NCBI RefSeq assembly: GCF_030144855.1
Contig: NC_082717.1
Location: 5,146,001-5,210,000, forward strand
Direction of reading: 5' to 3'
Source: Hypanus sabinus
Lineage: Eukaryota
DNA: 64,000 bases
This document shows positions 11,869-48,056 of the stretch, piece by piece. Each line of letters opens with the position of its first letter. The first letter of the stretch is position 1. The notes under the pieces are model-generated. The model was given only the letters and a program-made list of their open reading frames with translations, did not search any database and was not told where the DNA came from. Made by a program: the position numbers and the translations under genes.

Positions 11869-12122
11869 TTGGGGATGAAAATTGTTGAAGTACTGCAAGT
11901 GTGACCTGACTAGTGTCTTATTAAGGCTCAACTTTATCTCCTTGCTTTTATATTTTATTCCCCTTGTCCACAATATTGTTCCTTTTACCAAAACGCATTA
12001 TCATACATTTCCCAACACCATATTTCATCTGCCACTTTTTGCCCATACTTCCAATTTGTCTTCGTCTTTCTTAAATTGCATTGCTTCCTCAGCACTACTT
12101 ACCCCTACAACTATCTTTATAT

Positions 12123-12878
12123 TGTTATGTTCCAGCAGCAATACGCCACAAACTGAGTCAGGTTTCAATGTTAAACACCTATATTTTTATCATCTACACA
12201 AAATACAGAAAATTAAACAGGCTACTCTCCTAAACAGAAGTTAACAGCGTTATGTGTTTGTAGCTCCCAAACTGTCAAGCTTAGGAGCAGTTCTTCACAA
12301 ATATTACTCAACACAATCTTAGGATGGCAATCTAGAAATTTCCAATAATCCGTGGAATAGGTGAGGAGAGAAACTTGTAAATCCACATTAAAGTGCAACG
12401 AGGAGGCAATGACAAAGATTTCTGAAGGTTCTACGCTGGGAAAACAAGGTAACAGTCAGAGAAGATCTCAGCCGACGAGTAGGGACTCAAAATCCACTTA
12501 GAGATATCAGAAGGTGACAGTCAAGGAATATTCCTTAGCACAAATGGTCACCACATAACACGCCCAAATCCATGTAAGGGTTAACAAAAAGTGGTCGCCA
12601 CAGAATACTCCAGAAATCCATGTATGCATCATATGAAGTGACTGTATCCAATATGTACTGAGTGCTGCTAATTATCACAATCCTCTGGGCATGGGGAAGT
12701 GTTACACTTGCCCATTGCTGTAGCGAGTTCTCCCGCTGGTAACTTGCAGTCCGAGCTCTTAGCTCTCTGCTGAATATCCCAGCAACCTCTCAGCATTTTG
12801 TTAAACTGGCATTATCCACCTGCCTCGTGCAAGCATTTAAAGTGGTGCTCACAGAGAAAAAAACGTTGACCCATAACA
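12123..12878 (-). promoter_or_regulatory. 3' LTR of the Gmr1-like element
   Basis: TGTTA...TAACA termini; direct repeat of 21162-21921 (about 85-88% identical by eye); preceded on the minus strand by PPT GGGAGAGG (12879-12886). Confidence 0.93.
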
Positions 12879-13115
12879 CCTCTCCCAAATAGAGAAAACT
12901 TTGATCTGTAAAAGCAAAATCTCAACTACAAACTACAATATGTGAAGCAATACATACTGTATACAATTACCATATGGTGCACTACAGACTAATATTACAT
13001 GTTGCAGGAGTGTATACGAATATCAAATTCCATTGCACTATCGAAAGTACATTGCAAGCTGGAAAGACAGTCGGCAGTTATATTATCCCTGCCTTTAATG
13101 TGAGTTATCATGAGG

Positions 13116-14428
13116 TCATACTCTTGTAAAATCAAACTCCAACGTTCTATTTTTGTTTTTCACCTTACTCAAAAACACTAATGGATTATGAGCTGAACAA
13201 ACAATAAGTGGTGCCCGAACATCAAAATGCTGCAAAGCAAATATAAGTGATAATAATTCCTTCTCTATGGTGGAATAATTTATTTGATGCTTATTGAGTT
13301 TCTTTGAAAAGTAAGTCACAGGATGGTCAACATCATCATAGTCATCCCTTTGTAGTAACAATGCTCCTGCAACTTCGTCACTGGCATCCATGGCTATGGG
13401 AAATGGCTTTGCAAAGTCAGGTGACCTAAGCACAAGTAGATGACATAAGGTGGCCTTCATTTTCACAAATGCCTCCTGGTAAGGCTCTGTCCAAACAATT
13501 TTTTTACCCTTCTTCAGGATGTTAGTCAATGGGAGGGCAATATCAACATAGTTCTTACAGAATTTGCAATAATATCCGACTATTCCCAGGAATCTTCAAA
13601 GAGCCTTTTTACCGGTTGGAGTGGGAAACTCAAAAATGCCTGAACTTTTGCCTGAACAGGAGCCAATCTGCCATGACTGACAACATAGGTCACATAGGTC
13701 AAGATAGGTCACAGTGGCATGGCCAAATTCACCCTTAGCTAAGTTAACGGTAAGGTTGGCCTTTGAGAGTCTGACAAACAGCTTTTCCACTGCAGAGATA
13801 TGGGCTTCCCTTGTGTCATTTCCTGTGACCAAATCATCAATATAGGCATCTGTGTGTTTAAACCCTTGAATTACAGAATTAATCATTTTCTGGAATGTTC
13901 CCAGAGCATTTTTTCATTCCAAATGGCAGAACATTGTATTCATACAATCCAGAAGGCATTACATATGCAGAAATTACTCTACCCCTATCCGTAAAAGGAA
14001 CACGCCAATATCCTCTTAACAGATCAATTTTTGTAAGAAACTTAGCTTTTCCAACCTTGTCTACACAATCATCCACTCTAGGGATTGGATAAGCATCAGT
14101 TTTTGTTGTAGTATTCACCTTTCTGTAATCAGTGCAGAACCTGAAACTACCATCTGGTTTAGGTACCATAACACTAGATGAGCTCCAATATGAAGTAGAA
14201 TGCCTAATAATACCATTTTCTAACATATACTCAACTTCTTGATCAGCAAGTCTACATTTTTTAACATTCATGTGATACGGATGCTGTTTTATGGGTTCGG
14301 CATCACTAACGTCTGCATCATGTGAGGCCACTGGTGTTCTTTTTGGAACATCAGGGAACAAATCCGAATATTTCATCATCAACTTCTTCATTTGCTGCCA
14401 CTGCTGTAGTTGTAGCTGCAGTTTTTCA
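13116..14428 (-). pseudogene. Gmr1-like RT and RNase H (frameshifted)
   Basis: KPDGSFRFCTDYRKVN, YPIPRVDD, LPFGM, AYIDDL, FAKPFPIAMDASD, YSTIEKELL. Confidence 0.92.
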
Positions 14429-16045
14429 TCAAGAATGCCGCAAGGATTTAAACATTCACCACACGTTTTTAATCAGGTATTGAAGGCAGACCTAGAGGGT
14501 ATGCCATTGGAAAGTACATTGTTACAGTATGTGGATGACCTGTTGATTTGCTCCCACAGCAAGGAACAGTGTAAGCAGGACACTATAACTCTGTTAGAGA
14601 AACTAGCGCGCGGAGGACATAAAGCATCCAGAAAGAAACTGCAATTTTGCATGCAGCAAGTGGAATACTTAGGCAGGGTAACATCCAAGGGAGTGAAGGC
14701 AATAGCACCAGGTCAGATTGAGGCAATAACTAAGGCCCCCAAACCTCAGACTGTAGGGCAGATGATGATGTTTTTGGGAATGGCAGGATACAGTTCAGAT
14801 TGGATAGGAGAATATGCTGAGATTGTGGCACCTTTAAGAAAGATAATGAAAGAAGCAGGACATACAAATTTGAAAAACGGCTCACAGTGGAATGGAGAGG
14901 CGGAGACAGCTTTCAATACTATTAAGCAGGAATTGCAGTCAACACCAGCATTAGCTTTGCCTGACTACGAGAAGGTTTTTCATTTGTATGTGTCCAACCG
15001 ACAAGAGGGTTATGTTACAGCAATTCTAACACAAGAGACAGGCACAGGAAAAGCAAAGCAGCCAATAGCATACTACAGTACGAGACTAGATGAGGTGGCT
15101 CAGGGGTATCCACCCTGTTATCAGGGATTGGCGGCCCTGTACTATGCATATGAAAAGGCATCATCTGTAACCCTGGGCTATCCCGTGACTCTGTACACAC
15201 ACCACAAAGTAGCAGAGTTGCTGGAAAGAGGGAAATTTGTGTTGACGCCAGCTAGGATAGCAGCATATCAGATGCTATTGACATTTCCAGATATAACTAT
15301 ACAGAGATGCACTACCAGTAATATAGCCAATTATGTCCCTTTAGACTATGAAGGAGAACCCCATGATTGTGTAGGGAAGACAATAGCATTTGTCAAATTA
15401 AGAGCAGATTTACGGTCAGAACCACTAGAGGATGCAGATAAAAAGGTTCTGTTCGTAGATGGTTCTTGTTATAGGGACTATGATGGAAATCATGCAGGGT
15501 TCTCAGTCGTGCAGCAGGATCAGTCGAGCTATAAGATTATTAGGATGGAGTCCTGTTCCCAACCGTGTTCCACCCAACTAGCGGAAATCAAAGCCCTGAC
15601 AGCTGCGTGTGAAATGATGGAAGGTGAGAACGTAGACATCTATACTGATTCAGCATATGCTCATGGAGTATGCCATTTGTTCGGGGCAGTGTGGAAGCAG
15701 AGAGGTTTTCAAAAAAGTAATGGAGATCCCATACAACATTGTCAGCAAATTCTAGCCTTAATAAAAGCCATAATGAAACCTAAAGCACTGTCTATAATAA
15801 AATGCCAGGCACACAAAAAGGGAAATGATGTAATAACAAAGGGAAATCAAGCTGCGGACGAGGCAGCCAGAAAAGCGTCTGGGTGTACGTCAGCTGTCAT
15901 TGCCCCCCAGGTAAACCTAACTCCAGAACCTGAGGTAAAGGACCTAATTGAAATACAAGGTAAGGCAACTTTGGCAGAACAGACAATGTGGAGACAAAGC
16001 AGAACCCGGAAGGCTTATGGAGCACGGAAGACGGTTTGTTGGTAG
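14429..16045 (+). CDS. ERV pol fragment: RT C-half, connection domain, RNase H (about 538 uninterrupted codons)
   Basis: RMPQGFKHSPHVF, LQYVDDLL, FLGMAGY, LFVDGSC, LAEIKAL, YTDSAYA, KCQAH..GNQAADEAA; the first 46 codons of the track ORF are antisense Gmr1 sequence. Confidence 0.9.
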   Translation, partial: SRMPQGFKHSPHVFNQVLKADLEGMPLESTLLQYVDDLLICSHSKEQCKQDTITLLEKLARGGHKASRKKLQFCMQQVEYLGRVTSKGVKAIAPGQIEAITKAPKPQTVGQMMMFLGMAGYSSDWIGEYAEIVAPLRKIMKEAGHTNLKNGSQWNGEAETAFNTIKQELQSTPALALPDYEKVFHLYVSNRQEGYVTAILTQETGTGKAKQPIAYYSTRLDEVAQGYPPCYQGLAALYYAYEKASSVTLGYPVTLYTHHKVAELLERGKFVLTPARIAAYQMLLTFPDITIQRCTTSNIANYVPLDYEGEPHDCVGKTIAFVKLRADLRSEPLEDADKKVLFVDGSCYRDYDGNHAGFSVVQQDQSSYKIIRMESCSQPCSTQLAEIKALTAACEMMEGENVDIYTDSAYAHGVCHLFGAVWKQRGFQKSNGDPIQHCQQILALIKAIMKPKALSIIKCQAHKKGNDVITKGNQAADEAARKASGCTSAVIAPQVNLTPEPEVKDLIEIQGKATLAEQTMWRQSRTRKAYGARKTVCW

Positions 16046-16733
16046 CGCCCACCCCTCTCCTGACGATTCTGATTTCAGAAGCGCATGGGATGGACCATTG
16101 TGCAAGGGGGGAAGGGATAAAGAAAATAAAGAAAATAAAGAAGGATGGTTTTTGGTCACCTTATTTATAGGCTTCAGTGGACTTTGTCTTGTCACAGTGC
16201 GAGGTATGCACACAGAATAATGTTCGGAAGGGAATTACAACCCCAATAGGTCACATTCCTGTACCTGAAGGACCATTTAAACATCTGGTGATCGATTACG
16301 TAGACATGATAAAGACAGTGAGAGGGAAAAGATACATGTTGGTAGTAATTGATCGATTCAGCAGATGGGTGGAGGCGGTACCTTCAAAAGATCAAGGGGC
16401 AAAGACAGTGGTAAAATTTCTGACAAATGAAGTGATCCCAAGGTTTGGAATACCTACAGAAGTTAGCTCAGACAATGGTTCAGCTTTTATCCAGAAAGTG
16501 GTCAAACTGGTACTACAAGCGCTGAGGATAAAGCAAAGATTTGGATGTGTATACCACCCTCAGTCGCAGGGCATGGTAGAAAGAATTAATGGAACCCTGA
16601 AAGCCAAACTAAACAAAATTTGTGCAGACACTATATTTAATTGGGTCGATGCTTTACTGTTAGCATTGATGAGTTACCGCATGCATACTAATCGAATAAC
16701 ATGCCTGACACCACATGAGATGCTCACTGGGAA
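15990..16733 (+). pseudogene. ERV integrase (HHCC and DDE core), with a frameshift, one stop and a deleted C-terminus
   Basis: HGMDHC..CEVC, LVIDYVDM, VIDRFSRWVEA, SSDNGSAF, HPQSQGMVERIN; TAG at about 16168. Confidence 0.9.
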
Positions 16734-17354
16734 GCTATCATACCTGTGATAGGGGTAAGCAAAAATGTTGAATGGATAAACTATATATACTATAATCAGC
16801 AGACATTCATCAACTACACCGATGATGCACTGGAGGCCTTAGGGCAACAGCTAGATGCAAATAGCAGGATGTCATGGCAAAACAGGCAGGTACTGGATTG
16901 GCTTTTGGCAGAAAAAGGGGGTGTGTGTGTAATGTTTGGAGAACAATGCTGCACTTTCATACTGAACAATACTAGCCCAGAAGGATCATTTACTAAAGCA
17001 ATGAATAAATTAAAGAATCTGCAGACGGAGGTCAAACAGAATGCAGGATTTGAACATCAGTTTCTTGATTGGTTAGAAAGCAGACTTGGAGGATGGGGAG
17101 CATAGCTGACTAAAATAGCAATAACTGTCAGTATTGTATTGTTGAGCTGTGCGTTTGTGCTGTGCTGTTTTCTTCCTTGTCTCAAATCTCTTGTAGTGCG
17201 TGCTGCAACCAAACAAATTCCGATGCTCATGGCAATTACTGAAGCAAGCTTAGTGGAGAAAGAAACACCGAAAATGTATCGTTACAGCCTACAACACCTG
17301 CAGGATGAACAAGAGCAAAACAACAGTATGGGAGTAGATTGTAAGGGCTTATGA
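16733..17354 (+). pseudogene. ERV env transmembrane subunit (gamma-type); SU deleted; one stop before the membrane anchor
   Basis: AIIPVIGV, heptad region, immunosuppressive domain QNRQVLDWLLAEKGGVC, CX6CC (CVMFGEQCC), TAG at 17103-17105, then hydrophobic IAITVSIVLLSCAFVLCCFL. Confidence 0.9.
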
Positions 17355-17560
17355 GTCTTTTTCCCTGTCTCAGGTACAAAGGGACAGGTTTTTGGCTCAG
17401 CGGCCCAGGGTAGCAGGAAGAGAACACTTTGAGGTCTTGGCGCAGAAAATTATAGTTTACCCGAGATTTGGGAACAAATGCTTGAGCTTATTGGGGCTTT
17501 TGTGCGCGGACTCTTGGTCTTCTTTCTCTGTGTGAGCCCCTCTGGGTCTCAAAGGGGGGA

Positions 17561-18084
17561 TATATTGGAGTATAAAAGAGTATAAAAGTATAAATTTTAA
17601 CTATGAAGTCAGTTATTTGCTATGCATGTACTCAATTTAGTAGAATGACAATGGTATGTTAACGAGAGGTAGCTAAAGAGCTAAAGAAATGTAGATTAGA
17701 ACATTGCTCAGTTCTGAGTTTATTATTTGCTGTGCATGTAACCAATTTGGTAGGAGACTGAAGTCTTAAAAATGTAGAAGACAATGGTGTGTTAGTGAGA
17801 GGTAGCTAAGAAATGTAGATTAGAACATGATTAAGCCAATTGATAGGAACAATAGGGACATGGTGTACATTTAGTATATGTAATATGCAACTATAGATCG
17901 ATTACATATGCTAAGGCAACTGGACCAGGAAATTGCTATAAAAAATGCCGTGTCCGAGGATCGGTGGGCAATCAACGACTAGCTCAATGACTGTCTCAGC
18001 TTTGATTTGCAAATTAAAGTTTAACCTTTCTTGAAGAATCTTCTGTGTCTCCTGGTCATTTGTGAGGCACGAAAAGCCACAACA
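17561..18084 (+). promoter_or_regulatory. ERV 3' LTR
   Basis: PPT AAAGGGGGGA at 17551-17560; TATAAAA at 17937-17943; ATTAAA at 18013-18018; ends in CA at the junction with the Gmr1 integrase; starts TA rather than TG. Confidence 0.82.
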
Positions 18085-19400
18085 CTATCTGGTATTTTGA
18101 CTACATAATCCACATCATTGACCATAGACACAATTTCATAGGGACTACGAAACCTGGCCTACAGAGGATTTGGCAGCACAGGGAAAAGAACGAGTACCTT
18201 ATCTCCTGGCATAAATGACCTAACTCTGGCTTTCTTATCATACCAGGTTTTTATTTTATTATGAGCAGATTTTAAATTTTCACTCGCTAGGCTGCAAGCC
18301 CTTTTCAAACTGTCCTTGAATTTTAAAATATAGTCCAACAAATGTATATGCAGGTCATTGTTGGCCCACTGCTCTCTTAACAATGACAAAGGATCTCTGA
18401 CCTGGAGCCCAAACACAACTTCGAAAGGGCTGAAGCCTAGGGACTCTGACACAAACTCCCTTACTGCAAACAGAAGTAAGTGAACTCCCTCATCCCAATC
18501 CTTCTCATTTTCAAAACAGAATGTCCTAATCATGGTTTTGAATGTAAAATGGAATCTTTCTGAGGCCCCTTTGGATTCTGGATGATACGCAGATGACGTA
18601 ATCTGTTTGGATCCCAGTTCGTAAAGTACCTGCTCAGATAATCCTGACATAAAATTACTGCCTTGAGCAGATTGAATTTCTTTAGGCAGACCAAATAGGG
18701 TGAAAAATTTTATGAGAAGCTTCAACACAGTTGGAGCTTTGATATTCTTGAGTGGTATTGCTTCCAGGAATCTAGATGCTGTGCACATGATGGTTAGCAA
18801 ATACTGATGGCCAGCTCTATTCTTTGACAATGGGCCAGCACAATCCACAATAACTTTAGAAAAGGTTTCACCAAATGCAGGAATAGGCTATAGTGGAGCC
18901 ACTGGGGTGACCTGATTAGGTTTATCCACAACCTGACAAGTGTGACAAGTTCGGCAAAATGTCACAACATCTTTCCTCAAACCAGGCTAGAAGAATTGTT
19001 TCAAAACCTTGTCCAGAGTTTTATTCATACCAAGATGGCCACCCAAAGCATACTATGGGCCAAGGATAAAACCTCATTCCTGTAGACCTTAGGAACTACA
19101 ACTTGGTGAAAAATTGCCTATTCCTCACTTGCCAGCATATCAGGTGGTCTCCACTTCCTCATTAACACTCCATCCTTGAAATAATACCCAACTGGCACTT
19201 TCTCAATCTGATCACCTGAGAGAACTTTTTCTCTCAATGCAGCAATCTCAGGGTCTCTGGTCTGTTCCACTATAAACTCCTTCCTGGACAGAGACAAATC
19301 TTTATAGTCAGTCCTAATACAAGGATCTTGGACAAACAATGAAGGAAGGAAAGTCACTGACAGGTCACCAAACCTGAGTCTCCATTTGGGCTATCATAGG
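18085..19400 (-). pseudogene. Gmr1-like integrase
   Basis: GGHLGMNKT..CRTCHTCQ zinc motif, DCAGPL, YHPESKGASERFH, VLVLFP..PYEIV. Confidence 0.92.
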
Positions 19401-19499
19401 TAGTGGAACCATGCTGCACAGGGCCATATGCACTGGCAAGCTTCTTTGTTATAGCTCAAGTTACTGCGCGGGATGGATAAATGTTAGAATCCATCTCTG

Positions 19500-19885
19500 G
19501 ATCATCAGTGATAGGCTTAGTCATCAGCTGCACTGCAGGGACTACTTTTCCACCTGCTAGGTCATTCCCTAACAACAAATAAAGACCTTTCATCAGTAAA
19601 CTGGGCCATCGTCCCATCTTAACTGGTCCTGAAACTAACTATGACTTCAAAATTACCTTGTGCAGAGGTACAGAAACAATGTCACCCCCAATGCCTTGAA
19701 AGAGATTTACCTCACCAGTGTCAATCTCACCACAAAACTCTAGAACATTGTCTAACAAGAGTGATTGAGAAATCCCAGTATCTCGAAGAATTTTCACTGG
19801 CATCGATGGTGACTCTTTATTTACTGAAACAAATCCCTCTGACTCAAAAGGAATGAATTCTTTTCTAACCAGGTCAGACATCCTG
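19500..19885 (-). pseudogene. Gmr1-like aspartic protease
   Basis: GFVS..VKILRDTGISQSLLL (DTG motif). Confidence 0.85.
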
Positions 19886-21096
19886 ACAGAGCTTCATCAG
19901 AAAGTCCAGAACCCTGTGAGTTTATAGGTGTTTCAAATTGTTGAACACAGGCATCTAGAACTGCCTCCTTTTCCTTCTTCTTCCTCAGGAGGAAAGAATT
20001 AGACATAACATGACCAGATTTCTTGCAATAATGACAAGTACACCCATAATGTTTCTCCTTTAATTGCTTCCCTTCATCTGTACTGTTGTTGCTATTCCCA
20101 GATTTGATTTCTGGTTTACCCTGATTATCCATGTTATTCTTTTGCAGGGTCTTACCTGGTGTAAACTTAAACTTGTGGGTTAGAGCAAATTCATCTGCTA
20201 ACTTAGCCAATTTTTGCCAAGTGGCAATATCCTTCTCATATAAATATGTTTTTATGTCATTATGGATGCATCTTTTAAACGCTTCAATTAAAACCAACTC
20301 TTTCAATTTGTTGTAATCATCATTCACATTTTTAGATGTGTACTCTCGTTCAAAACAGATAGATTTCACATAAGCATATTCCACATGTGTCAGGCTCACA
20401 GATTTCCTCAAATTCCTAAACATTTGCCTATACGCCTCTGGAACCAGTTCATAGCCTTTAAGCAAAGCCTGCTTTACTGTCTCATAGTCAGCTGCACCTT
20501 CAATGCAGTGCAGAATAAGCCTGCTGAGCCTTACCTTTAATTACACTCTGCAACAGGAGAAGCCAACATACTCTTGGTCATTGTAGGCTCTAAGCAACAT
20601 TTTCAAAATGCTGGAAGTAATAATCAACCTCAACCTCATCAAATGGAGGGACCAATTTAACTTCTCGACTGGCAGCAAACTTACCACTAGAGCCAGAAGT
20701 TTGACTCATGAGCTTTAGCTTCTCTATCTCAAACAGACTTAGTTTTTTCTCTTTCTGCAGCTTCCAGCCGTCTTTGTCATTCCCAAACTCAAATCTAAGT
20801 TTCTCTAACTTTAGTTGTTCCATCCATAACTAGAGCTCAGGGTCATCTGATTTACTTTCAGGAAACAGTTCTAACACCCCGGCTTTGAGCACATCCATAG
20901 ATATATAGTGCTCAACTATACTCCTCTGAAACTCTGCCTTTTTCATAGCCCGCATTATCGTAATAAGTTTCAACTTACCAGCAATGACCAAAAACTCTGC
21001 CTGCCTATAATACGTCAAAGGTTGATGATGCCAGGAGTCTATTAATATCCAATGCAGCAGGCTTCCACACACGTCAATCAAAAGGGAAGTAATCAA
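19885..21096 (-). pseudogene. Gmr1-like gag with SCAN-like capsid domain and zinc knuckle
   Basis: LVPPFDEVEVDYYFQHFE, YELVPEAYRQMFR..LKELVLIEAFK..LADEF, CHYCKKSGHVMSNS (last Cys lost). Confidence 0.88.
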
Positions 21097-21138
21097 TCAA
21101 ATTGAAATGAACCAATCAATAAGCTAAAATTTATTTAG

Positions 21139-21156
21139 ATCCCGGACAAGCCCCCA
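21139..21156 (-). promoter_or_regulatory. Primer-binding site, tRNA-Pro type
   Basis: TGGGGGCTTGTCCGGGAT, 17/18 match to the canonical Pro PBS TGGGGGCTCGTCCGGGAT, 5 nt after the 5' LTR. Confidence 0.88.
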
Positions 21157-21161
21157 ATTTA

Positions 21162-21921
21162 TGTTATGTGCCAGCAGCAATAGACCACACACTGAGTCAG
21201 GTTTTAATGTTGAACACCTATAATTTTGCATCTACACAAAATGCAGAAAATTAAACTGACTGCTCTCCTAAATAGAAGTTAACAGTTTTATGAATTTGTA
21301 GCTCCCAAACTGTCAAGCTTAGGAACAGTTCTTCACAAATCTTACTCAACATAGTTTTAGGATGGCAATCTAGAAAGTTCCAGTAATCCGCAGGATAGGT
21401 AAGGAGAGAAACTTGTAAATCTGCATTGAAATGTACCGATGAGGCGATCACGAAGAATTCCAAAGGTTCTACGCTGGGAAAACAAATTAACAGTCAGTGA
21501 AGATCTCAGCCAATGAAGAGGGATCCAAAATACACATAGAGATATCACAAGGTGACAGTCACGGAATATTCCTTAGCACAAGTAGTCACCACATAACACA
21601 CTCGAATCCCTGTAAGGGTTAACAAGAACCGCACACCACAGAATACTCCAGAAATCCACATTTGGATCATACGAAGTGACAACCACGCATCCAATTTGCA
21701 CTGAGTGCTGCTAATGATCACAATCCTCTGGGCATGGGGAAATATTACACTTGCCCATTGCTGTAGCCAGCTCTCCCGCTGGTAACTCACAGTCCAAGCT
21801 CTTAACTCTCTGCCAAATATCCCAGCAACCTCTCCGCATTTTGTTATACTGATATCATCCACCTGCCTCATGCAGGCGTTTGAAGTGATGCTCACAGAAA
21901 AAAAAACATTGACCCGTAACA
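21162..21921 (-). promoter_or_regulatory. 5' LTR of the Gmr1-like element
   Basis: TGTTA...TAACA termini; direct repeat of 12123-12878; followed by the PBS. Confidence 0.93.
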
Positions 21922-23183
21922 ATATCATCTGCAAACTTTGCCACAAAGGCATCAATTCCATTATCTAAATCATTGACAAGCATTGTGAAAAGTAATGGTT
22001 CCAATTCGGACCCTCTGAGGAACACCACCAGTCACTGATAGCCAACCAGAAAAGGCCACCTTTATTCCTAATTGCTGCCTCCTGACTGTCAGCCAATGTT
22101 CTATCCATGCAGTAACTTTCCTGTAATGCCATCGGATTTTATCTTGTTTAGCAGCTTCATGTGTGGCACCTTATCAAATGCCTTCTGAAAATCCAAGTAA
22201 ATGATAGCCACTGCCTCTCCTTTTTTCACACTGCTTGTTACTTCCTCAAAAAAACTGTAACAGATTTGTCAGGCAACATATCACTTCAAAGAAAATACTG
22301 ACTTGACTTCTTAATCATTAGGCGCCAAGTATCCCACAAGTTTATCGTTAATAATGGACTGTAGCACTTTCCCAACCACTCAGGATAGGCTAACTGGCCT
22401 ATTTTTTTTCTCTTACTCTCTTCATAAAGAGTAGAGTTACATTTGCAATTTTCCATTTCTTTAGAACCATGGCAGAATCAGGAGATTCTTGAAAGAAGGT
22501 AACCAATGCATCTGCTATCTCTTCAGCAGCTTCTTTCAGAAATCTGGCATATAGCCCACCTGGTCCAGGTGACTTATCCCCTTTAAGTCCTTTCAGTTTG
22601 CCTTGCATGTTTTCTTTTGTAATGGCAATGGCTCTCATACCTGCTCTGTGACACTCACAAACCTCAGACATACCACTAGTGTCTTTCAAAGTGAAGACAG
22701 ATACAAAGTACCCATTGAGGTCTTCTGCAATTTATTTGTCTCTGATTCCTACCACACCAGTATCATTTTCCAGTGGTCAAATATCAACAATCACCTTCCT
22801 TTTCCTCTTTATACTTCTGAAAAATCTTTTAGAATCCTGCTTTATTATTGGCTAGTTTGCCCACATATTTCATCTTTTCCCTTTTTATGTCTTTTTTTGG
22901 TTACCTTTTGTTGGATTTTAAAAGCTTCCCAGTCATTGAACTTTGCACATTTTTTAGCTACATTATATGCCATTGGCTGTTATGCAGTCCTTAACTTCCC
23001 TTGTCAGCCACGGTTGCTTACCTATGCCATTTGAGAAATTCTTCTTCTGTGGGATATGTCTATCCTGTGCCTTGAGATCTATTCCCAAAAACTCCAGCCG
23101 CTTTGGTCTCACATCTTCCCTGACAGTCTCCTCCTCCAATATATCTGGTCAAGCTGCTCACTCATGCCTCTGTAACTCTCTTT

Positions 23184-28319: not shown

Positions 28320-31300
28320 TTAACTCATATCAGATGATAGTAGCAGGCGCATGAACCCCAACTTTTCTCAAAATCGAATCAAGGATCAAAAGTTCGACTT
28401 CTGATTTTCTCCAAACTAAGACATGACATCACTTGTGAAAACCATTTCATTAAAGTGGGAGCCGAAATATCTTTCCATTTCAACAAAATAAATCTTCTGG
28501 CCAATAATGTAATGAAAGCAATTACATGTTGGTCTAATGAAGAAATATATTGAGGGATCATACCAAATAAAACTGTCAATTTATTATTTTGTAAATTAAT
28601 TTTTAAAGCTTTAGAAATTGTAGAAAGAATAGTCTTCCAAAAATGTTTCAGTACAGAACACGGCCAAAACATATGTGTCAATGTGGCTGTCCATTTTACA
28701 TCTGTCACACTGACTATCAGTATTACGAAACATTTTAGACAGCCTCTCCTTTGTCAAATAGTAACAATGAATTGAATTAAAGTGTGATTGGCATGAGTCA
28801 AAAAAGAATTGACCAACTTCAAAATCCACAACCAATCTTCTGTTATCAAAGTCATGTTAAGTTCTCTCTCCCAATCTTGCTTAATCTTAGGTGAAGAGTA
28901 ATTGTGCTGCTGTAACAATAAATTATAAATTTTCCCAATAAAACCCTTCACTAAAGGATTTATTTTTAAAGAAATACCTGACAGGTCAGAATCTTGTATG
29001 TATGGAAAACTACTTCAATATTTTTGTAAGAAGTGTCTGACCTGATGATATTGCAGGAAATGTGAATATGAGAGAGTATTTAGTTACTAATTTTTCATAA
29101 GACATCAGTCGGCCATCTTGGAACAAATCTGTGAAGGAATAAACCCCTTTAGTCCTCGAAAGAAGAAAAGTAGGATCACTTACTGAAGGTTTAAATAAAT
29201 AATTTTGATAAATTAAACTAAAAAGTTTAAATTTTTAAAGATTAAAAAAATTATGAAACTGGAACCAAATTTGTAATGACTGCTTAATCACAGGATATAA
29301 ATTTAAATTAGTAATTTTGTACAGGCAGAGAAGCTCCTAATAATGAGGTTAAGTGAAACTTTCACAGCATTAAATACCAAATCAGCCCAAGATGGTCATT
29401 CATCTCTATCAGCCCAATATAACCAAAAGCATATATAACGTATATTAACAGCCCAATAATCCATTCTTAAATTAGGTAATGCAAGACCTCCATCTTTTTT
29501 TAACCATATAACAATCACAGCACAGAAACAAGCCATCTCGGCCCTCCTAGTCCGTGCTGAACTCTTAATCTCACCTAGTCCCACCTACCCGCACTCAGCC
29601 CATAACCCTCCACTTCTGTCCTGTCCATATACCTATCCAATTTTACCTTAAATGACACAACTGAACTGGCCTCTACTACTTCTACAGGAAGCTCATTCCA
29701 CACAGCTCACTCTCTGAGTAAAGAAATACCCCCTCATCTTTCCCTTAAACTTTTGTCCCCTAACTCTCAAATCATGTCCTCTCATTTGAATCACCCCTAC
29801 TCTCAATGGAAACAGCCTATTCACATTAACTCTATCTATCCCTCTCAAAATTTTAAATACCTCGATCAAATCCCCCTTCAACCTTCTATGCTCCAATGAA
29901 TAGAGAGCTAACTTGTTCAACCTTTTTCTGTAACTTAAGTGCTGAAACCCAGGTAACGTCCTAGTAAATCATCTCTGCACTCTCTCTAATTTATTGATAT
30001 CTTTCCTATAATTCAGTGACCAGAACTGTACACAATATTCCAAATTTGGCCTTACCAATGCCTTGTACAATTTTAACATTACATCTCAACTTCTGTACTC
30101 AATGCTCTGATTTATAAAGGCCAGTGTTCCAAAAGCCTTCTTCACCAGCCTATCTACATGAGACTCCACCTTCAGGGAACTATGCACTGTTATTCCTAGA
30201 TCTCTCTGTTCCACTGCATTCCTCAATGCCCTACCATTTACCCTGTATGTACTATTTGGATTATTCCTGCCAAAATGTAGAACCTCACACTTCTCAGCAT
30301 GAAACTCCATCTGCCAACGTTCAGCCCATTCTTCCAACTGGCATAAATCCCCCTGCAAGCTTTGAAAACCCACCTCATTATCCACAACACCTCCTACCTT
30401 AGTATCATTGACATACTTAATAATCCAATTTACCGCCCCATCATGCAGATCATTTATGTATATTACAAACAAGATTAGGCCCAAAACAGATCCCTGAGGC
30501 ACCCCGCTAGTCACCGACCTCCATCCCGATAAACAATTATCCACCACTACTCTCTGGCATCTCCCATCTAGCCACTGTTGAATCCATTTTATTACTCCAG
30601 CATTAATACCTAATGACTGAACCTTCTTAACTAACCTTCCATGTGGAACTTTGTCAAAGGCCTTGCTGAATTCCATATAGACTACATCCACTGCCTTATC
30701 CTTGTCAACATTCCTCGTAACTTCTTCAAAAAATTCAATAAGATTTGTCAAACATGACCTTCCACGCACAAATCCATGCTGGTTACTCCTAATCAGATCC
30801 TGTCTATCCATATAATTATAAATACTATTTCTAAGAATACTTTCCATTAATTTACCCACCACTGATGTCAAACTGACAGTTCTATAATTGCTAGGCTTAC
30901 TTCTAGAACCCTTTTTAAACAATGGAACCACATGAGCAATACGCCAATCCTCTGGCACAATCCCCGTTTCTAATGACATCCTAAAGATCTCTGTCAGAGC
31001 TCCTGCTACCTCTACACAAACTTCACTCAAGGTCCTGGGGAATATCCTGTCAGGACCCAGAGATTTATCCACTTGTAAACTTCTTAAAAGCGCCAGAGCT
31101 TCCATCTCTTTAATTGTCATAGGTTCCATAACTTCCTTACTTGTTTCCCACACCTTACATAATTCAATATCCTTCTCCTTAGTGAATACCAAAGAGAAGA
31201 AATCGTTCAAAATCTCTCCCATCTCCCTGGGCTACACACATAGCTGATCACCCTGATTCTCTGAGGGAACAATTTTATCCCTCACTATCCTCTTGCTGTT

Positions 31301-34300
31301 AATATAACTGTAGAAACCTTTCGGATTTACTTTCACCTTATTTGCCAAAGCAACCTCGTATCTTCTTTTAGCTTTTCTAATCTCTTTCTTAAGATTCCTT
31401 TTACATTCTTTATAATCCTCGAGCAATTCCTTTACTGCATGCTGCCTATATCTACTGTAGACATCCCTCTTTTTCCGAACCAAGTTTCTAATATCCCTTG
31501 AAAACCATGGTACTTTCAAACCTTTAACCTTTCCTTTCAACCTAACAGGAACATAAAGATTCTGTACCCTCATAATTTTACCCTTAAATAACCTCCATTT
31601 CTCTATTACATCCTTCCCATAAAACAACTTGACCCAATCCACTCTCTCTAAATCCCTTCGCATCTCCTCAAAGTTAACCTTTCTCCAATCAAAAATCTCA
31701 ACTCTAGGTCCTGTCCTGTCCTTCTCCATAATTATATTGAAGCTAATGCTATTGTGATCACTGGACCCGAAGTGCTCCCCAACACATACATCTGTCAGCT
31801 GACCTATCGTATTCCCTAGCAGGAGATCCAACACTGCCCCATCTCTAGTCGGTACTTCTATGTATTGTTGCAAAAAACTATCCTGCACACATTTCAAAAA
31901 CTCTAAACCATCCAGCCCTTTTACAGAATGAGCTTCCCAGTCTACGTGTGGAAAATTAAAATTTCCCTCAATCACCACCTTGTGTTTACTACAATATCTG
32001 CTATCTCCTTACACATTTGCTCTTCCAACTCACGCTCCCCATTAGGTGGCCTATAATACACTCATATCAGTGTTACTACACACTTCCCATTCCTCAATTC
32101 CACCCAAATAGTCTCCCTAGAGGAGCTCTCTAATCTGTCCTTCCAAAGCACCGCCATAAGATTTTCTCGGACAAGCAATGCAACACCTCCTCCTCTGGCC
32201 CCTCCTACTCTATCACACCTGAAGCAACTAAATCCAGGAATGTTTAGTTGCCAATCACTCCCTTCCTGCAACCATGTTTGCAACAACGTCATAATTCCAT
32301 GTATCAATCCACGCTTTAAGCTCATCCACCTTTCTTACAATGATATTTAGCAATTCTTGGTCTTTTATTATTCCAAACAGAAGATGAAATTATGGAGTCA
32401 ACCTGAACGAAGAATTTCTTAGTTTGAAAAAATAGGGATATTTTGAAGTACATTTAAAATTTTTTAGTAAAATTATCATTTTAACGCATGAATTCGACCG
32501 ATTAACAAAAGTGTAAGTGGATTCCATCTACAAAATAATTGCTTCATAAAATCCACTAAAGGAACCAAATTAGTTTTATAAAGGTCTTTACGATTTTTCG
32601 TGATAATAATGCCTAAATATTTAAATGAGTCCGTAACCCTAAAAAGAAAGTCATCATATATAGAAGCAGAATCAGGGAAAGGAATTTACTTTTATGAAGG
32701 TTGAGCTTATATCCCGAACACTTTCCAAAATCATTTAATAGTTTCAATAAACTAGGAATGGATTATTCAGGATTTGAAATATAAACTAAATGATCATCAG
32801 CATAAAGAGAGATCTTATGAACAGTCCCATTTATAAAAATTCTATGAATATCTTTCCCTTCACAAAGTGCAATAGCCAAGGGTTCCAGCACCAAATTAAA
32901 TAACAAATGACTTAAAGGACATCCTTGACTCGGTACCCCGTGAAAGCTGATAAAACGGAGATCTGCAATTGTTAGTAATAACAGTAGCAATTGAGCTTTT
33001 ATACATCATTCCAATCCACTTATTAAAATTAATACCAAAGCCGAATTTCTCTAAAACATTCAATGAGTATTTCCATTCAACTCTGTCAAATGTCTTTTCA
33101 TTAACAAAAGAGGCAACACATTGGAGAGCCTTAGAAAAGGATGAATATATAACATTTAACAGTCTCTGAACATTAGAAAAGGAGTAACGGTCCTTTACAA
33201 AATCTGTATGATCTTGAGAAATAATTTCAGCCAATAATTCTCCAGCCATTAAGCCATTATTTTGAGAGAATTTTAGCATCCACATTTAATAATTAAATAA
33301 CACTATATGAAGCACAGTCAGTAGAATCTTTATCTTTCTTAAGAATTAAAGAAATGGAAGCTTGATAAAATGTGGGAGATAACGGTCCTATCAAAAGAGA
33401 ATCTTTAAACGTTTCCAACATATATGAGGACAGCAACTTTTCAAACATTTTATAAAATCCTACATAATAACCATCAAGTCCAGTAGCTTTACCAGATTGC
33501 TTTGAAAAAATAACTTTCTGAATTTTGCTTTCAGTAATAGGAGTATCAAGTTTTTTGATCTTCAGCAGAAATTGGAGGAAAATCAATCTTTTGTAAAAAG
33601 GCATTCATTTTATAAGAATCAACCGAAAACTGAGATTTATAAAGTTCAATATAAAAGTCTTGAAAAATGTTATTAATATCTTCATAACTACATGCTAAAC
33701 TTCCATCTCACTTATGAAGTTATTTTTTTTTCTTTTTAGCTCTAGCTGCTTTTAATTGAGATGCTAATAGCTTATTACTTTTATCTCCAAACACATAAAA
33801 TTGACTTTTCAATTTAAGTAAATTTCTTTCAAAAGGATAAGTTAATAATAAATTATATTGTGATTGGAGTTGAACTCTTTGTTTAAATAAATCAAAGCTA
33901 GGAGAGTGCATAAATATTATCTAAGTCTTTAATTTGTTTGGAAATTTTATCTAATTCTATTTTTGTATGTTTCTTCAGCTTAGTTGAATCGGAAATTATC
34001 TGACCACGCAAATATGCTTTAAATGTATCCCATATAATCAACTTCGATACATCTCCCATATAGTTAAAAAGAAAAAAACTCTTTTATCTGAGTCTCAATA
34101 AATCTGACAAAGTCTGTAATAAATCTGTAATAAGTCTGTAATAAATTTTCTGTAAAAAGCCAAGGCAAATTTGCAATAGTGACTTCTTTCAGTTCAAAAG
34201 CTAAGCTTAAAGGTGCATGATCCAAAAGAACTATAGAATCATATTCACATTTCTGGACTTCGATGATTGACTATAAAGCAATCGGTTCTCAAATATTTTA

Positions 34301-40855: not shown

Positions 40856-43645
40856 ATCTATTTTAATGCTAGGAGCATTGTAAGAAAGGTGGATGAGCTT
40901 AAAGCGTGGATTGATATCTGGAATTATGACATTGTTGCAAACATGGTTGCAGGAAGGGTGTGATTGGCAACTAAATATTCCTGGATTTAGTTGCTTCAGC
41001 TGTGATAGAGTAGGAGGGGCCAGAGGAGGAGGTGTTGCATTGCTTGTCTGAGAAAATCTTATGGCGGTGCTTTGGAAGGATAGATTAGAGAGCTCCTCTA
41101 GGGAGGCTAGTTGGGTGGAATTGAGGAATGGGAAGGGTGTAGTAACACTGATAGGAGTGTATTATAGGCCACCTAATGGGGAGCGTGAGTTGGAAGAGCA
41201 AATATGTAAGGAGATAGCAGATATTTGTAGTAAACACAAGGTGGTGATTGAGGGAGATTTTAATTTTCCACACGTAGACTGGGAAGCTCATTCTGTAAAA
41301 GGGCTGGATGGTTTAGAGTTGTGAAATGTGTGCAGGATAGTTTTTTGAAACAGTACATAGAAGTACCGACTAGAGATGGGGCAGTATTGGATCTCCTGTT
41401 AGGGAATGCGATAGGTCAGCTGACAGATGTATGTGTTGGGGAGCACTTCGGGTCCAGTGATCACAATAGCATTAGCTTCAATATAATTATGGAGAAGGAC
41501 AGGACAGGACCTAGAGTTGAGATTTTTGATTGGAGAAAGGCTAACTTTGAGGAGATGCGAAGGGATTTAGAGAGAGTGGATTGGGTCAAGTTGTCTTATG
41601 GGAAGGATGTAATAGAGAAATGGAGGTCATTTAAGGGTGAAATTATGAGGGTACAGAATCTTTATGTTCCTGTTAGGTTGAAAGGAAAGGTTAAAGGTTT
41701 GAAAGCACCATGGCTTTCAAGGGATATTAGAAATTTGGTTCGGAAAAAGAGGGATGTCTACAATCGATATAGGCAGCATGGAGTAAAGGAATTGCTCGAG
41801 GAATATAAAGAATGTAAAAGGAATCTTAAGAAAGAGATTAGAAAAGCTAAAAGAAGATACGAGGTTGCTTTGGCAAGTAAGATGAAAATAAATCCAAAGG
41901 GTTTCTGCAGTTATATTAATAGCAAAAGGATAGTGAGGGATAAAATTGGCCCCTTAGAGAATCAGAGTGGTCAGCTATCTGTGGAGCCGAGGGAGATGGG
42001 AGAGATTTTGAATGATTTCTTCTCTTCGGTATTCACTAAGGAGAAGAATATTGAATTGTGTAAGGTGTGGGAAACAAGTAAGGAAGTTATGGAACCTATG
42101 ACAATTAAAGAGGTGGAAGTACTGGCACTTTTAAGAAATTTAAAACTGGATAAATCTCCGGATCCTGACAGGATATTCCCCAGGACCTTGAGGGAAGTTT
42201 GTGTAGAAATAGCAGGAGCTCTGACGGAGATCTTTAAGATGTCATTAGAAATGGGGATTGTGCCGGAGGATTGGCATATTGCTCATGTGGTTCCATTGTT
42301 TAAAAAGGGTTCTAGAAGTATGCCTAGCAATTATAGACCTGTCAGTTTGACATCAGTGGTGGGTAAATTAATGGAAAGTATTCTTAGAGATAATTTTAAT
42401 AATTATCTGGATAGACGAGATCTGATTAGGAGTAGCCAGCATGGATTTGTGTGTAGAAGGTCATGTTTGACAAACCTTATTGAATTTTTTGAAGAAGTTA
42501 TGAGGAATGTTGACGAGGGTAAGGCAGTGGATGTAGTCTATATGGACTTCAGCAAAGCCTTTGACAAAGTTCCACATGGAAGGTTAGTTAAGAAGGTTCA
42601 GTCATTAGGTATTAATGCTGGAGTAATAAAATGGATTCAACAGTGGCTGGATGGGAGATGCCAGAGAGTAGTGGTGGATAATTGTTTATCGGGATGGAGG
42701 CCGGTGACTAGAGGGGTGCCTCAGGGATCTGTTTTGGGCCCAATGTTGTTTGTAATATACATAAATGATCTGGATGATGGGGTGGTAAATTGGATTAGTA
42801 AGTATGCCGATGATACTAAGGTAGGAGGTGTTGTGGATAATGAGGTGGGTTTTCAAAGCTTGCAGGGAGATTTATGCCGGTTAGAAGAATGGGCTGAATG
42901 TTGGCAGATGGAGTTTAATGCTGAGAAGTGTGAGGTTCTACATTTTGGCAGGAATAATCCCAATAGAACATACAGGGTAAATGGTAGGGCATTGAGGAAT
43001 GCAGAGGAACAGAGAGATCGAGGAATAACAGTGCATAGTTCCCTGAAGGTGGAGTCTCATGTAGATAGGGTGGTGAAGAAGGCTTTTGGAACGCTGGCCT
43101 TTATAAATCAAAGCATTGAGTACAGAAGTTGGAATGTAATGTTAAAATTGTACAAGGCATTGGTAAGGCCAAATTTAGAATATTGTGTGCAGTTCTGGTC
43201 ACCGAATTATAGGAAAGATATCAATAAATTAGAGAGAGTGCAGAGAAGATTTATTAGGATGTTACCTGGGTTTCAGCACTTAAGTTACAGAGAAAGGTTG
43301 AACAAGTTAGGTCTCTATTCATTGGAGCGTAGAAGGTTGAGGGGGGATTTGATCGAGGTATTTAAAATTTTGAGAGGAATAGATAGAGTTGACGTGAATA
43401 GGCTGTTTCCATTGAGAGTAGGGGAGATTCAAATGAAAGGACATGATTTGAGAGTTAGGGGCCAGAAGTTTAAAGGAAACACGAGGGGGTATTTCTTTAC
43501 TCAAAGAGTGATAGCTGTGTGGAATGAGCTTCCTGTAGAAGTAGTAGAGGCCAGTTCAGTTGTGTCATTTAAGGAAAAATTGGATAGGTATATGGACAGG
43601 AAAGGAGTGGAGGGTTATGGGCTGAGTGCGGGTAGGTGGGACTAG
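40856..43645 (+). CDS. CR1 ORF2; EN part frameshifted, 774 codons open from 41321
   Basis: YFNARSI..WNYDIVA, YYRPP, GDFNFP, SNYRPVSLT, DFSKAFDKVPH, GVPQGSVLGP, SKYADD. Confidence 0.93.
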
Positions 43646-43981: not shown

Positions 43982-46900
43982 ACATAGCCAGTGGTGGTAA
44001 TATGAATAAGCTCTCGCTATCTATAAAGTGCTTCCACATGGCTTGAGTCTCAAATAGCCTCTGTCAATCAAGTCCAGCTCCCAGCCTTCACATGGCGGAA
44101 CGGTTCCTACCAACGAGAGAAGGGGCAAAGGTGGGTCTCTGGCGCCTCAAAACCAGATGCTTCGGGCAGGCGGGGCTCGTTAGTCCTGGTCGACTGCTCA
44201 CCTAGGAGAAGGTCTACTCTGATTTTAAAAACTCTGCTGCCTTGCGACCACACTCAGTCATAGGAAAGGCTATGGAAGTAAACCCTGAGAAGAAATCTGG
44301 AGTCCCATAGGCAGTCAATAGGGAGGACTTCATCAATCTATTGTCAGGCAACTCCTGCAGCTGAAGAGCCAGCATGTGTAACGATCTTCGTGCCAGTGGA
44401 TCCTGACCTCCGAGGCCGAGAGAGTGGGACTGTCTCTGTGCTAAGGCTTTTTCACTATAATATCTTTCACCCACAGGTCCTTGTGTTGTGCATCTTCATC
44501 TTCTTTCTCTCTTCAAAAGTCCTACGGCGATGGGAGGGCAGCGAACCAATAGGTGGAGGTGACCACTGAGTTGCAGTTGCAAACCTGCTCGTAGGCGGCC
44601 CTTGGACAGATGGTCATTCTCCTCTGAACCCGGGGCAGAAGGGGAGTCCAGCAGCATCCATGGTGACTGGGCAGCCCTTTTTAGGATAGCGCTGCCCAAC
44701 CTGTAATCAGGGAAGGGCCTAGAAAAGGTGGCCTAAACATTGCTTGCCCTAGATCATCTGGCCAGTTAACCGTGACTGATGGATCACCTAATCATTGCAG
44801 TCGAAATCAAAATCAAAAGAAAAAGATTCTCCATCGAGGAGCATGGAACGTTCGCACCTTAATGGATAAGGAAAAAACTGCAAGATCTGAAAGGAGAACA
44901 GCTCTCATTGGTAAAGAACTTGCTCACTACAACATTGACATCACAACGCTGAGCGAAACCAGGGTTGCAGATGAGGGATCCATCACTGAACTTGCCATTG
45001 GCTACGACTTCTTCTGGAGAGGAAGGGCGCAGAACAAAGACAGGATCCACGGAGTGGGCTTCGCCATAAGGAGTACCCTGATGAAACAGCTCCCCGACCT
45101 GCCTGTTGGCATCAGCGAAAGATTGATGAAGCTACGTCTGCCCCTCAGTCAAAACTGACATGCAACTATCATTAATGCCTATGCCCCCACCCTGACCAGC
45201 CCTACTGAAACCATAGAGCAGTTTTACACCGACCTTGACTCCATCCTGTGCTCAGTGCCGGCCTGTGACAAGCTGATCTTCCCAGGAGATTTCAATGCCC
45301 GAGTCAGATAAGATCATGATCTGTGGAGTGGAGTGCTCGGTAGACACTGAGTCGGGAAGATGAACAGCAATGGCCTTCTGCTTCTTAGAAAATGTGAAGA
45401 GCATGACCTCACTCTCACGAACACACTTTTCAGAATGGCCAACAAATTCAAGACAACATGGATGCACCCTAGATCCAAACAAAAGCATCTGATCGATTAT
45501 GTCATTGTCCGTCAACATAACATCCGAGATGTAGTCATCACACGAGCCATGTGAGGAGCAGAGTGCGCGACGGACCACAGACTCCTCCACACCACCCTCA
45601 AACTACACATTGTTCAATCTCACAAAAAGCATCCAAAGGCAGTACGACCATCCTTTAACACCTCCAAACTTCAGCACCCTCCATGTCTATGTGAATTTCA
45701 AAATACTCTTAAATAGAAACTATCAACAAACCAGCCACTCACGGGTAACCCAATCCAGAAATGGAGCCACTTCAAAATTGCTATTTCTGAAACAGCAAAA
45801 TCAATCATAGTCCGTAGAAAGTGCACCCACCAGTATTGGTTTGATGAGAATAGCACAACCATTGATGACCTACTCTCCAAGAACAACAAGGCATTCAAAG
45901 AATGGCAGGATGACCCGAGCTCCACCTGCAAAAAGGACAGATTCAAGTCCTATCAGGCACTTGCTTAAAGGGAAATCCGTATAATGAGCAACACATGGTG
46001 GAATAACAAGGGAGATGAGGTTCAGCACTATGCTGACACAAACAACACCAAGCAGTTCTTCAACGCCATCAAGTCTGTCTTTGGTCCCTCAAAGTCAAGC
46101 TTGGCTCCTCTGCTTTCTGCAGATGGATCCTCGCTTATCAAGGACAAAATGGGTATCAACACCCGATGGAAGGAACACTTCAGTCAGCTCCTGAACCGCC
46201 CCTCCACTGTCGACCAGTCAGTACTCGACCAGATTCCCCAGAGCCCAGTCCATGAGCACCTCAACAACACCCCCTCCCTGACCGAGGTCAGCACAGCCAT
46301 CAAACAGATGAGCTGCAAAGCACCAGGCAAGGATGGCATTCCCGCAGAACTGTTCAAAGCCCTCAATCAGAAGCATTCCAGGACGTCCTGGTCAGTATCT
46401 GGGAAGAAGAAGTAATGCCACCCGACCTTCGGGATGCTGCAATAGTCGCCCTATACAAAAACAAAGGCCCACGCACAGACTGTGGGAACTTCCGGGGCAT
46501 CTCCCTACTTTCCATCGCCGGCAAAATCCTGGCTCGCATCATACTCAATAGGCTAATTTCAACAGTATCCAAAGGAAACCTCCCAGAATCGCAATGCGTG
46601 TTTTGGCCTAAACGCAGTACTGTGGATATGATCGTCACTGTTAGACAAATGCAGGAGAAATGCCTGGAGCAGAACATGAACTTGTACTTTGTCTTCATTG
46701 ATATGACTAAAGCGTTTAATATTGTCAACAGAGAAGCGTTGTGGATCATCCTCGGGAAACTTGGCTGCCCTCCAAAGTTTATCAACCTCATACGCCTCTT
46801 CCATGATAACATGACTGGAGAGATTCTCTCAGTTGATGAACCTAGCAAGAAATTTGATATCTCCAACTGCGTTAAGCAGGGCTGTGTGCTTGCACCAGTA

Positions 46901-48038: not shown

Positions 48039-48056
48039 TAAAGTGCAGGACCTCCA

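What the first reader, a model, noticed from the sequence alone, without database searches (positions are those of the whole stretch)
14429..18084. Class I endogenous retrovirus inserted antisense inside a Gmr1 retrotransposon, forming a hybrid LTR unit
Seen: retroviral RT/RH/IN/env and a 3' LTR on the plus strand sit between the Gmr1 integrase and RT on the minus strand. The right junction is the exact LTR end (CA at 18084). The left junction starts mid-RT at RMPQG, and Gmr1 sequence between VKIPD and DEKL is missing. Inference: one later deletion removed the ERV 5' LTR, gag, pro and half of RT plus some host pol, possibly through TCAAG microhomology (14429-14433). About 538 stop-free pol codons suggest a fairly recent infection. 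Chondrichthyan ERV lineages are poorly sampled, and the result is env and retroviral pol bracketed by Gypsy LTRs, PBS and PPT.
Basis: partly seen in the sequence, partly recalled or inferred. Interest (0 to 1): 0.7.

Follow-up and report, generated by a model that had tools for sequence, protein, structure and literature searches.

The report
Broken retrovirus nested in older retrotransposon
The back half of a common endogenous retrovirus sits backwards inside an older, broken Gypsy retrotransposon at one place in what is likely a ray genome; this is likely an ordinary chance nesting, and the pair likely never moved as one unit.

Summary
The layout is real. The 3' part of a class I ERV (14432-18084, plus strand) lies antisense between integrase and RT of a Gmr1-type Gypsy (12123-21921, minus strand). 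Corrections: the left-junction overlap is 3 bp (AGA), not TCAAG; the host lost 192 bp; the LTR is 17563-18084; env is only a TM remnant, through a deletion shared by many family copies. The ERV pol groups with ray ERVs inside a fish/amphibian clade, apart from Gypsy and amniote gamma-like ERVs. It is not a mobile hybrid. Each junction occurs once in the 4-Gb assembly. The Gypsy LTRs differ by 0.146, whereas the ERV differs from its nearest copies by 0.034-0.056, so the host was last reverse-transcribed long before the ERV arrived. The ERV family has hundreds of copies, Gmr1 covered about 1% of a background sample, and a second, independent nesting exists, so chance explains it. Open: whether the 5' half was lost by later deletion or at integration. 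Most family LTRs start TA instead of TG. No reads were available to test the assembly. Low interest.

The parts
12119..12122 (.). Target-site duplication ATAT of the host Gypsy (left copy)
   Evidence: matches 21922-21925
12123..12878 (-). 3' LTR of the Gmr1-type Gypsy (TG...CA)
12879..12886 (-). Polypurine-tract-like site of the Gypsy
13116..14431 (-). Gypsy RT and RNase H, broken into three frames
14432..14434 (.). Left junction: 3-bp overlap AGA shared by Gypsy and ERV; 192 bp of host and about 4.9 kb of ERV 5' sequence are absent here
14432..16734 (+). ERV pol remnant: RT C-half, connection, RNase H, integrase core; frame change near 16000, one stop in the integrase frame, C-terminal part absent
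16727..16732 (+). Internal IN-to-env join shared by a subfamily; a 6-bp word common to both sides; about 1.5-1.9 kb absent against longer copies
16727..17228 (+). env TM remnant of gamma type (ISD-like stretch and CX6CC), one stop, no SU
17551..17559 (+). ERV polypurine tract
17563..18084 (+). ERV 3' LTR, TA...CA
18085..18887 (-). Gypsy integrase, upstream of RT (Gmr1 order)
19821..20540 (-). Gypsy gag fragment with a weak SCAN match (23.1 bits, below the cut-off of 27)
21139..21156 (-). Primer-binding-site-like sequence of the Gypsy (tRNA-Pro type from recall, not tested)
21162..21921 (-). 5' LTR of the Gypsy, K2P 0.146 from the 3' LTR
21922..21925 (.). Target-site duplication ATAT (right copy)

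Best explanation
The 3' half of a high-copy class I endogenous retrovirus lies antisense inside an older, broken Gmr1-type Gypsy element, each junction occurs once in the assembly, and the pair is likely a chance nested insertion that likely never moved as one unit. Steps: (1) the Gypsy integrated first (shown: TSD, LTRs 0.146 apart). (2) An ERV copy already carrying the subfamily's IN-to-env deletion integrated later, with integrase joining the U5 end (shown: exact CA end; order inferred from distances). (3) The 5' LTR, gag, pro and half of RT (about 4.9 kb) and 192 bp of host were lost, and the ends were joined at a 3-bp overlap, likely by host end-joining repair (overlap shown, repair route inferred). 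I put this loss after integration at about 55% and at integration at about 40%. Nothing here is predicted to make a working protein or particle.
For: Single copy: in 40 of 40 scored matches per junction only the window itself spans it; 29- and 30-base junction patterns with up to 3 mismatches each match once in 4.04 Gb. Ages: Gypsy LTR pair K2P 0.146 (0.119 without CpG) over 755 sites. The ERV differs from 11 near copies by 0.042-0.056 in pol and from 8 by 0.034-0.043 in env/3'UTR. ERV LTR pairs give median 0.028 (9 of 20 copies) and 0.042 (14 of 35), maximum 0.084. Reverse transcription makes both LTRs identical (established), so a moved hybrid could not have LTRs older than its cargo. Abundance: 2143 first-look candidates for the LTR and 562-728 for internal parts. 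This Gmr1 family covered 3,948 of 400,000 background bases; 0 of 69 LTR flanks and 0 of 35 further copies hit it. A second, independent nesting in a 66-75% alike Gmr1 element has its own TSD. Loss of either end is common: of 35 copies, 20 had both LTRs, 8 apparent 5' loss, 4 no 3' end, 3 unclear.
Against: The assembly at the junctions could not be checked with reads. The background figure rests on one 10-kb stretch of 40, and the 500-bp flank test missed the known second nesting, so it undercounts diverged Gmr1 elements. Both known nestings are antisense (2 of 2; too few to judge). Genome searches score only the best 40 candidates. Against 'later deletion': only 192 bp of a 5.1-kb loss is host, and one 5'-truncated sibling shows about 2 host bases missing. 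LTR starts were placed by a fallback in 6 of the 9 pairs. No substitution rate was measured, so ages are relative only.
Confidence: 0.85

Rival explanations
1. Same nesting, but the 5' half was lost at integration: integrase joined only the U5 end and host repair joined a truncated left end at the 3-bp overlap, trimming 192 bp of host. This is a variant of step 3, not of the overall reading; the confidence is for that step.
For: Perfect U5 end, abnormal left end, small host loss. A 5'-truncated sibling (L182/L057) sits in a repeat whose flanks are colinear with about 2 bases missing against 4 other copies. 40 of 41 LTR starts found read TA, not TG. One-ended integration with a truncated second end is described for ASLV and HIV (PMC5041404, passages).
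Against: 3 of 4 truncated copies and 8 of 8 gave no colinear-host test. 3' ends are also often missing (4 of 35 over about 1 kb against 8 of 35 over about 7 kb). TA-start LTRs usually have normal 4-bp TSDs. No step in copy number across the break point (609 against 562 candidates).
Confidence: 0.4
2. A mobile chimera: ERV pol and env packaged between Gypsy LTRs, PBS and PPT and copied as a unit, like recKoRV.
For: The host LTRs, PBS-like and PPT-like sites are all present; mobilised recombinants exist in koala (PMC6112702, abstract).
Against: One copy of each junction; host LTRs about 3.5 times more diverged than the cargo is from its siblings; cargo is antisense to the Gypsy transcript and env has no SU; host frames are broken throughout.
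Confidence: 0.02
3. Assembly artefact joining two repeats.
For: Both parts are high-copy repeats, and the junctions have no read support here.
Against: The right join falls exactly on the LTR's last base. Host sequence is colinear on both sides with only 192 bp missing. The overlap at the left join is only 3 bp, far too short to drive a misjoin (inference). The place is 5 Mb inside a 112-Mb contig.
Confidence: 0.05
4. This ERV family targets Gmr1 elements.
For: Two independent antisense nestings were seen.
Against: 0 of 69 flanks and 0 of 35 copies had Gmr1 hits, against about 1% background.
Confidence: 0.04

Closest known systems
Epsilon-related class I ERVs of fish and amphibians with gamma-type env (bioRxiv 10.1101/2021.11.23.469661, passages; clade Mu of PMC6001957, passages)
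   Same: MLV-like RT/RNase H, gamma-type TM with CX6CC, grouping with fish and amphibian ERVs; the preprint reports over 500 copies in 3 cartilaginous fish
   Different: This copy is 5'-truncated and lacks SU; its exact clade among the named ones was not tested because no named reference virus was in the tree
Unnamed ERV pol proteins of Mobula hypostoma and Hemitrygon akajei
   Same: 80-89% identical; 100/97 support as one group
   Different: They are database gene models named 'uncharacterized protein'; I found no family description
Gmr1-like Gypsy retrotransposons (PMC3587641, passages)
   Same: Integrase upstream of RT; LTRs, PBS-like and PPT-like sites
   Different: This copy is broken and interrupted; not placed against named Gmr1 references
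Nested ERV insertions, e.g. beta4 ERV inside VL30 at mouse nonagouti (PMC6677723, abstract)
   Same: A retrovirus integrated inside an older LTR element at a single locus
   Different: Here the host is a Gypsy element and no gene effect is known
recKoRV (PMC6112702, abstract)
   Same: Mosaic of a retrovirus and an older retroelement with disrupted frames
   Different: recKoRV1 has many genomic copies and arose by recombination; this one is single-copy, antisense and ends at an integration junction

Membership tests
Class I ERV (Retroviridae) | RT/RNase H closer to gamma/epsilon retroviruses than to Gypsy | tested here: met
   MLV-type RT E 3e-92, foamy 2e-18, Ty3 7e-15; Gypsy rows split off at 100/100
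Class I ERV (Retroviridae) | Connection domain plus second RNase H; integrase after RT | tested here: met
   RT_RNaseH then RNase_H, then rve
Class I ERV (Retroviridae) | env with gamma-type TM (ISD, CX6CC) | tested here: met
   TLV_coat E 2.6e-09; C-X6-CC seen in the translation; TM part only
Class I ERV (Retroviridae) | Two LTRs, PBS, gag-pro, TSD | tested here: not met
   Absent in this copy; present in siblings, e.g. two LTRs, PBS-like site and 4-bp TSD in L013
Epsilon-related (clade Mu) ERVs | RT groups with fish/amphibian ERVs apart from amniote gamma-like ERVs | tested here: met
   29-row fish/amphibian/turtle clade at 98/96, excluding 9 amniote Gag_p30-bearing rows (41 rows chosen by me from the 105 and 96 hits plus loci)
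Epsilon-related (clade Mu) ERVs | Grouping with named epsilonretroviruses (walleye viruses) | not tested
   No named reference came back
Gmr1-like Gypsy | Integrase upstream of RT | tested here: met
   Order gag, IN, RT, RNase H on the minus strand; uninterrupted in other copies
Gmr1-like Gypsy | RT groups with named Gmr1 elements | not tested
   No named references held
Mobilised chimeric LTR element (recKoRV-like) | Same junctions at several loci | tested here: not met
   One match each
Mobilised chimeric LTR element (recKoRV-like) | Flanking LTRs no older than the cargo | tested here: not met
   0.146 against 0.034-0.056

The most novel reading that the evidence does not exclude
A ray ERV family with hundreds of copies spread with LTRs that mostly begin TA instead of the canonical TG, and it sometimes integrated by one end only, with host repair joining a truncated left end. 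This locus and L182/L057 would then be natural germ-line fossils of the one-ended integration seen in cell culture with ASLV and HIV.
Probability: 0.25. Interest if true: 0.45.

Novelty: new member of a known kind. Interest (0 to 1): 0.2.

Why it matters
The locus itself matters little: nested and truncated retroelements are expected in a 4-Gb, repeat-rich genome. The family behind it is of modest use to paleovirologists. It is a large class I ERV expansion in a likely ray, with an env-deleted subfamily formed at two crossover points in one short patch of similarity, and with TA-start LTRs. If one-ended integration proved common in it, it would be a natural test of how strictly integrase needs the terminal CA at the U3 end.

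Tried and rejected
Reads: the look-up of sequencing runs listed 23 runs, none holding half the words (best 0.23); no RNA holder listed. Laying 4 runs on 13000-19500 and 4 on the left junction gave ERV-family and Gmr1-family pieces but no record bridging a junction; these runs were not shown to hold this locus, so this is no test of the assembly. TCAAG microhomology: rejected. LINE-type copying of an ERV transcript: rejected because the copy ends at U5 with no poly-A (inference). Template switch between ERV and Gypsy RNA: rejected by LTR ages. Break-point hotspot: one other copy (L180) breaks 13 bp away, but candidate counts show no step, and its flanks are not Gmr1; left as likely coincidence. 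Gmr1 targeting: not supported. 5' bias of losses: not supported. L175 gave no integrase match, so the internal deletion was sized in 2 of 3 long copies. One of 37 proteins picked for the tree was handled by the same length filter as the rest; none was reported dropped. Earlier scan notes: none matched. PMC2573277 was not held. Literature searches showed no description of this family or of an ERV-in-Gmr1 hybrid in the listings; subscription papers and preprint supplements were not seen and may hold it.

Full report
What is there. Between two 86-89% alike LTRs (12123-12878, 21162-21921) with a TSD ATAT, the minus strand carries broken gag, integrase, RT and RNase H in Gmr1 order, integrase before RT (definition from PMC3587641, passages). 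From 14432 to 18084 the plus strand carries a retroviral RT C-half, connection, RNase H, integrase core, an env TM remnant, a polypurine tract and one LTR, 17563-18084. The nearest named proteins are from Mobula and Hemitrygon at 80-89%, so the host is likely a ray (inference).

Junctions. The right junction is the LTR's last base, followed directly by host integrase sequence. At the left, 11 of 11 ERV copies diverge from the window before 14432, and Gmr1 copies match through 14434 in 8 of 14. The shared word is AGA, 3 bp, not TCAAG. In 9 of 14 Gmr1 copies the two flanks are colinear with 194-197 bp between them counted from 14431, so 192 bp of host are gone; 1 copy had a longer gap and 4 had no right flank in the stretch fetched. 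Against the sibling L013 the missing ERV part is about 4.9 kb.

What kind of virus. PDB sequence matches rank MLV-type RT (E 3e-92) far above foamy (2e-18) and Ty3 (7e-15). In a 41-row tree the copy groups with two ray proteins (100/97), inside a 29-row fish, amphibian and turtle clade (98/96) that excludes 9 amniote Gag_p30-bearing rows and 3 Gypsy rows. PMC6001957 (passages) says the gamma clade is confined to amniotes and the epsilon-containing clade Mu spans jawed vertebrates. bioRxiv 10.1101/2021.11.23.469661 (passages) describes epsilon-related ERVs with gamma-type env and over 500 copies in 3 cartilaginous fish. So this is class I and likely epsilon-related; no named epsilonretrovirus was in the tree. 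Shark ERVs are already on record (PMC4422223, abstract).

The family is large and the env loss is inherited. First-look candidates number 2143 for the LTR and 562-728 for internal parts; these are not exact copy numbers. All 40 scored matches to 16400-17100 run through the IN-to-env join. Of 29 copies picked on env, 17 share the deletion (14 with one crossover point, 3 with the window's), 11 have no integrase core within 1.5 kb upstream and 1 differs; a few are duplicates of each other. The part absent is about 1.5-1.9 kb in 2 of 3 long copies measured. The two crossover points lie in one short patch where integrase and env resemble each other, which fits template switching during reverse transcription (inference). 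So 'env bracketed by Gypsy LTRs' is a TM stub with a stop, without SU. The 537 stop-free codons end after a frame change near 16000.

Not a mobile hybrid. Only the window spans either junction among 40 scored matches each, and each junction pattern matches once in 4.04 Gb with up to 3 mismatches. The Gypsy LTRs differ by K2P 0.146 (0.119 without CpG). The ERV differs from its nearest copies by 0.042-0.056 in pol (11 copies) and 0.034-0.043 in env/3'UTR (8 copies). ERV LTR pairs give medians of 0.028 (9 of 20 copies; starts placed by fallback in 6) and 0.042 (14 of 35), never above 0.084. Reverse transcription resets both LTRs to identity (established knowledge), so the host was last copied well before the ERV arrived. 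Ages are relative; I measured no rate.

Chance is enough. This Gmr1 family covered 3,948 of 400,000 background bases, all in 1 of 40 stretches. Of 86 loci examined, 69 gave a flank and none hit Gmr1 within 500 bp; 8 were duplicates, 6 were 5' LTRs, 3 had no LTR end. 0 of 35 further copies had Gmr1 hits. About 1% of some 600-2100 insertions gives roughly 6-20 expected nestings (my arithmetic, loose). A second one was found: a two-LTR provirus with its own 4-bp TSD, antisense, in a Gmr1 element 66-75% like the window's. The flank test missed it, so that test undercounts.

When was the 5' half lost? End loss is common: of 35 copies picked on the middle, 20 had both LTRs, 8 apparent 5' loss (two complex, one likely a duplicate), 4 no 3' end, 3 unclear. 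Per kb there is no 5' bias, which favours ordinary later deletion. Against this, only 192 bp of the 5.1 kb lost is host, and 1 of 4 truncated copies tested earlier sits in a repeat with about 2 bases missing, which a later deletion would hardly give. 40 of 41 LTR starts found read TA rather than TG (the sample is biased to relatives of the window's LTR), though most still have 4-bp TSDs. PMC5041404 (passages) describes proviruses with one normal end and one truncated, host-joined end. I put later deletion at about 55% and loss at integration at about 40%.

Limits. No run was shown to hold this locus, so the assembly was not checked by reads. The exact LTR end and the colinear host make a misjoin unlikely (inference). 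Searches of the paper library (listings and abstract starts, plus passages of PMC11117352, PMC3670739 and PMC10435555, which added little) showed no description of this family. Nested ERV insertions (PMC6677723, abstract) and mobilised recombinants (PMC6112702, abstract) are known; this is the former.

Verdict. A real but ordinary nested, truncated ERV; new member of a known kind; interest 0.2. The TA-start LTRs and possible one-ended integration are the only leads worth a further look.

Noticed in passing
window 17563-17564; L002, L003, L009, L013 and others: Most LTRs of this ERV family begin TA, not TG (40 of 41 places), yet solo LTRs and proviruses have exact 4-bp TSDs. A tomato element with TA-start LTRs is on record (PMC3701649, search listing only).
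   Followed up: partly
L182/L057 (G000 C18 near 124.03 Mb): 5'-truncated family copy in a repeat whose flanks are colinear with about 2 bases missing, suggesting loss of the 5' end at integration.
   Followed up: partly
L180/L054 (G000 C39 near 38.06 Mb): Independent copy truncated 13 bp from the window's break point, not in Gmr1, no TSD; no family-wide step seen.
   Followed up: partly
L178, L013, L179 (G000 C75 near 3.76 Mb): Second, independent antisense nesting of this ERV family in a diverged Gmr1 element.
   Followed up: yes
window 16709-16732 and L056-L081: The IN-to-env deletion has two crossover points 4 bp apart in net length within one short patch of similarity, so it likely arose at least twice.
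   Followed up: partly
window 29707-32342 and 40876-43511: Two inverted copies of an RT-bearing LINE-like element, 95-96% alike, one with a 793-codon stop-free frame.
   Followed up: no
window 46256-52922: Further RT-bearing frames (Pfam RVT_1) and a 57-bp tandem repeat at 51407-51540; two frames of 222 and 413 codons have no Pfam match.
   Followed up: no
window 17613-17828: The ERV LTR holds an internal, about 80% alike duplication of roughly 110 bp, and LTR length varies among copies.
   Followed up: no
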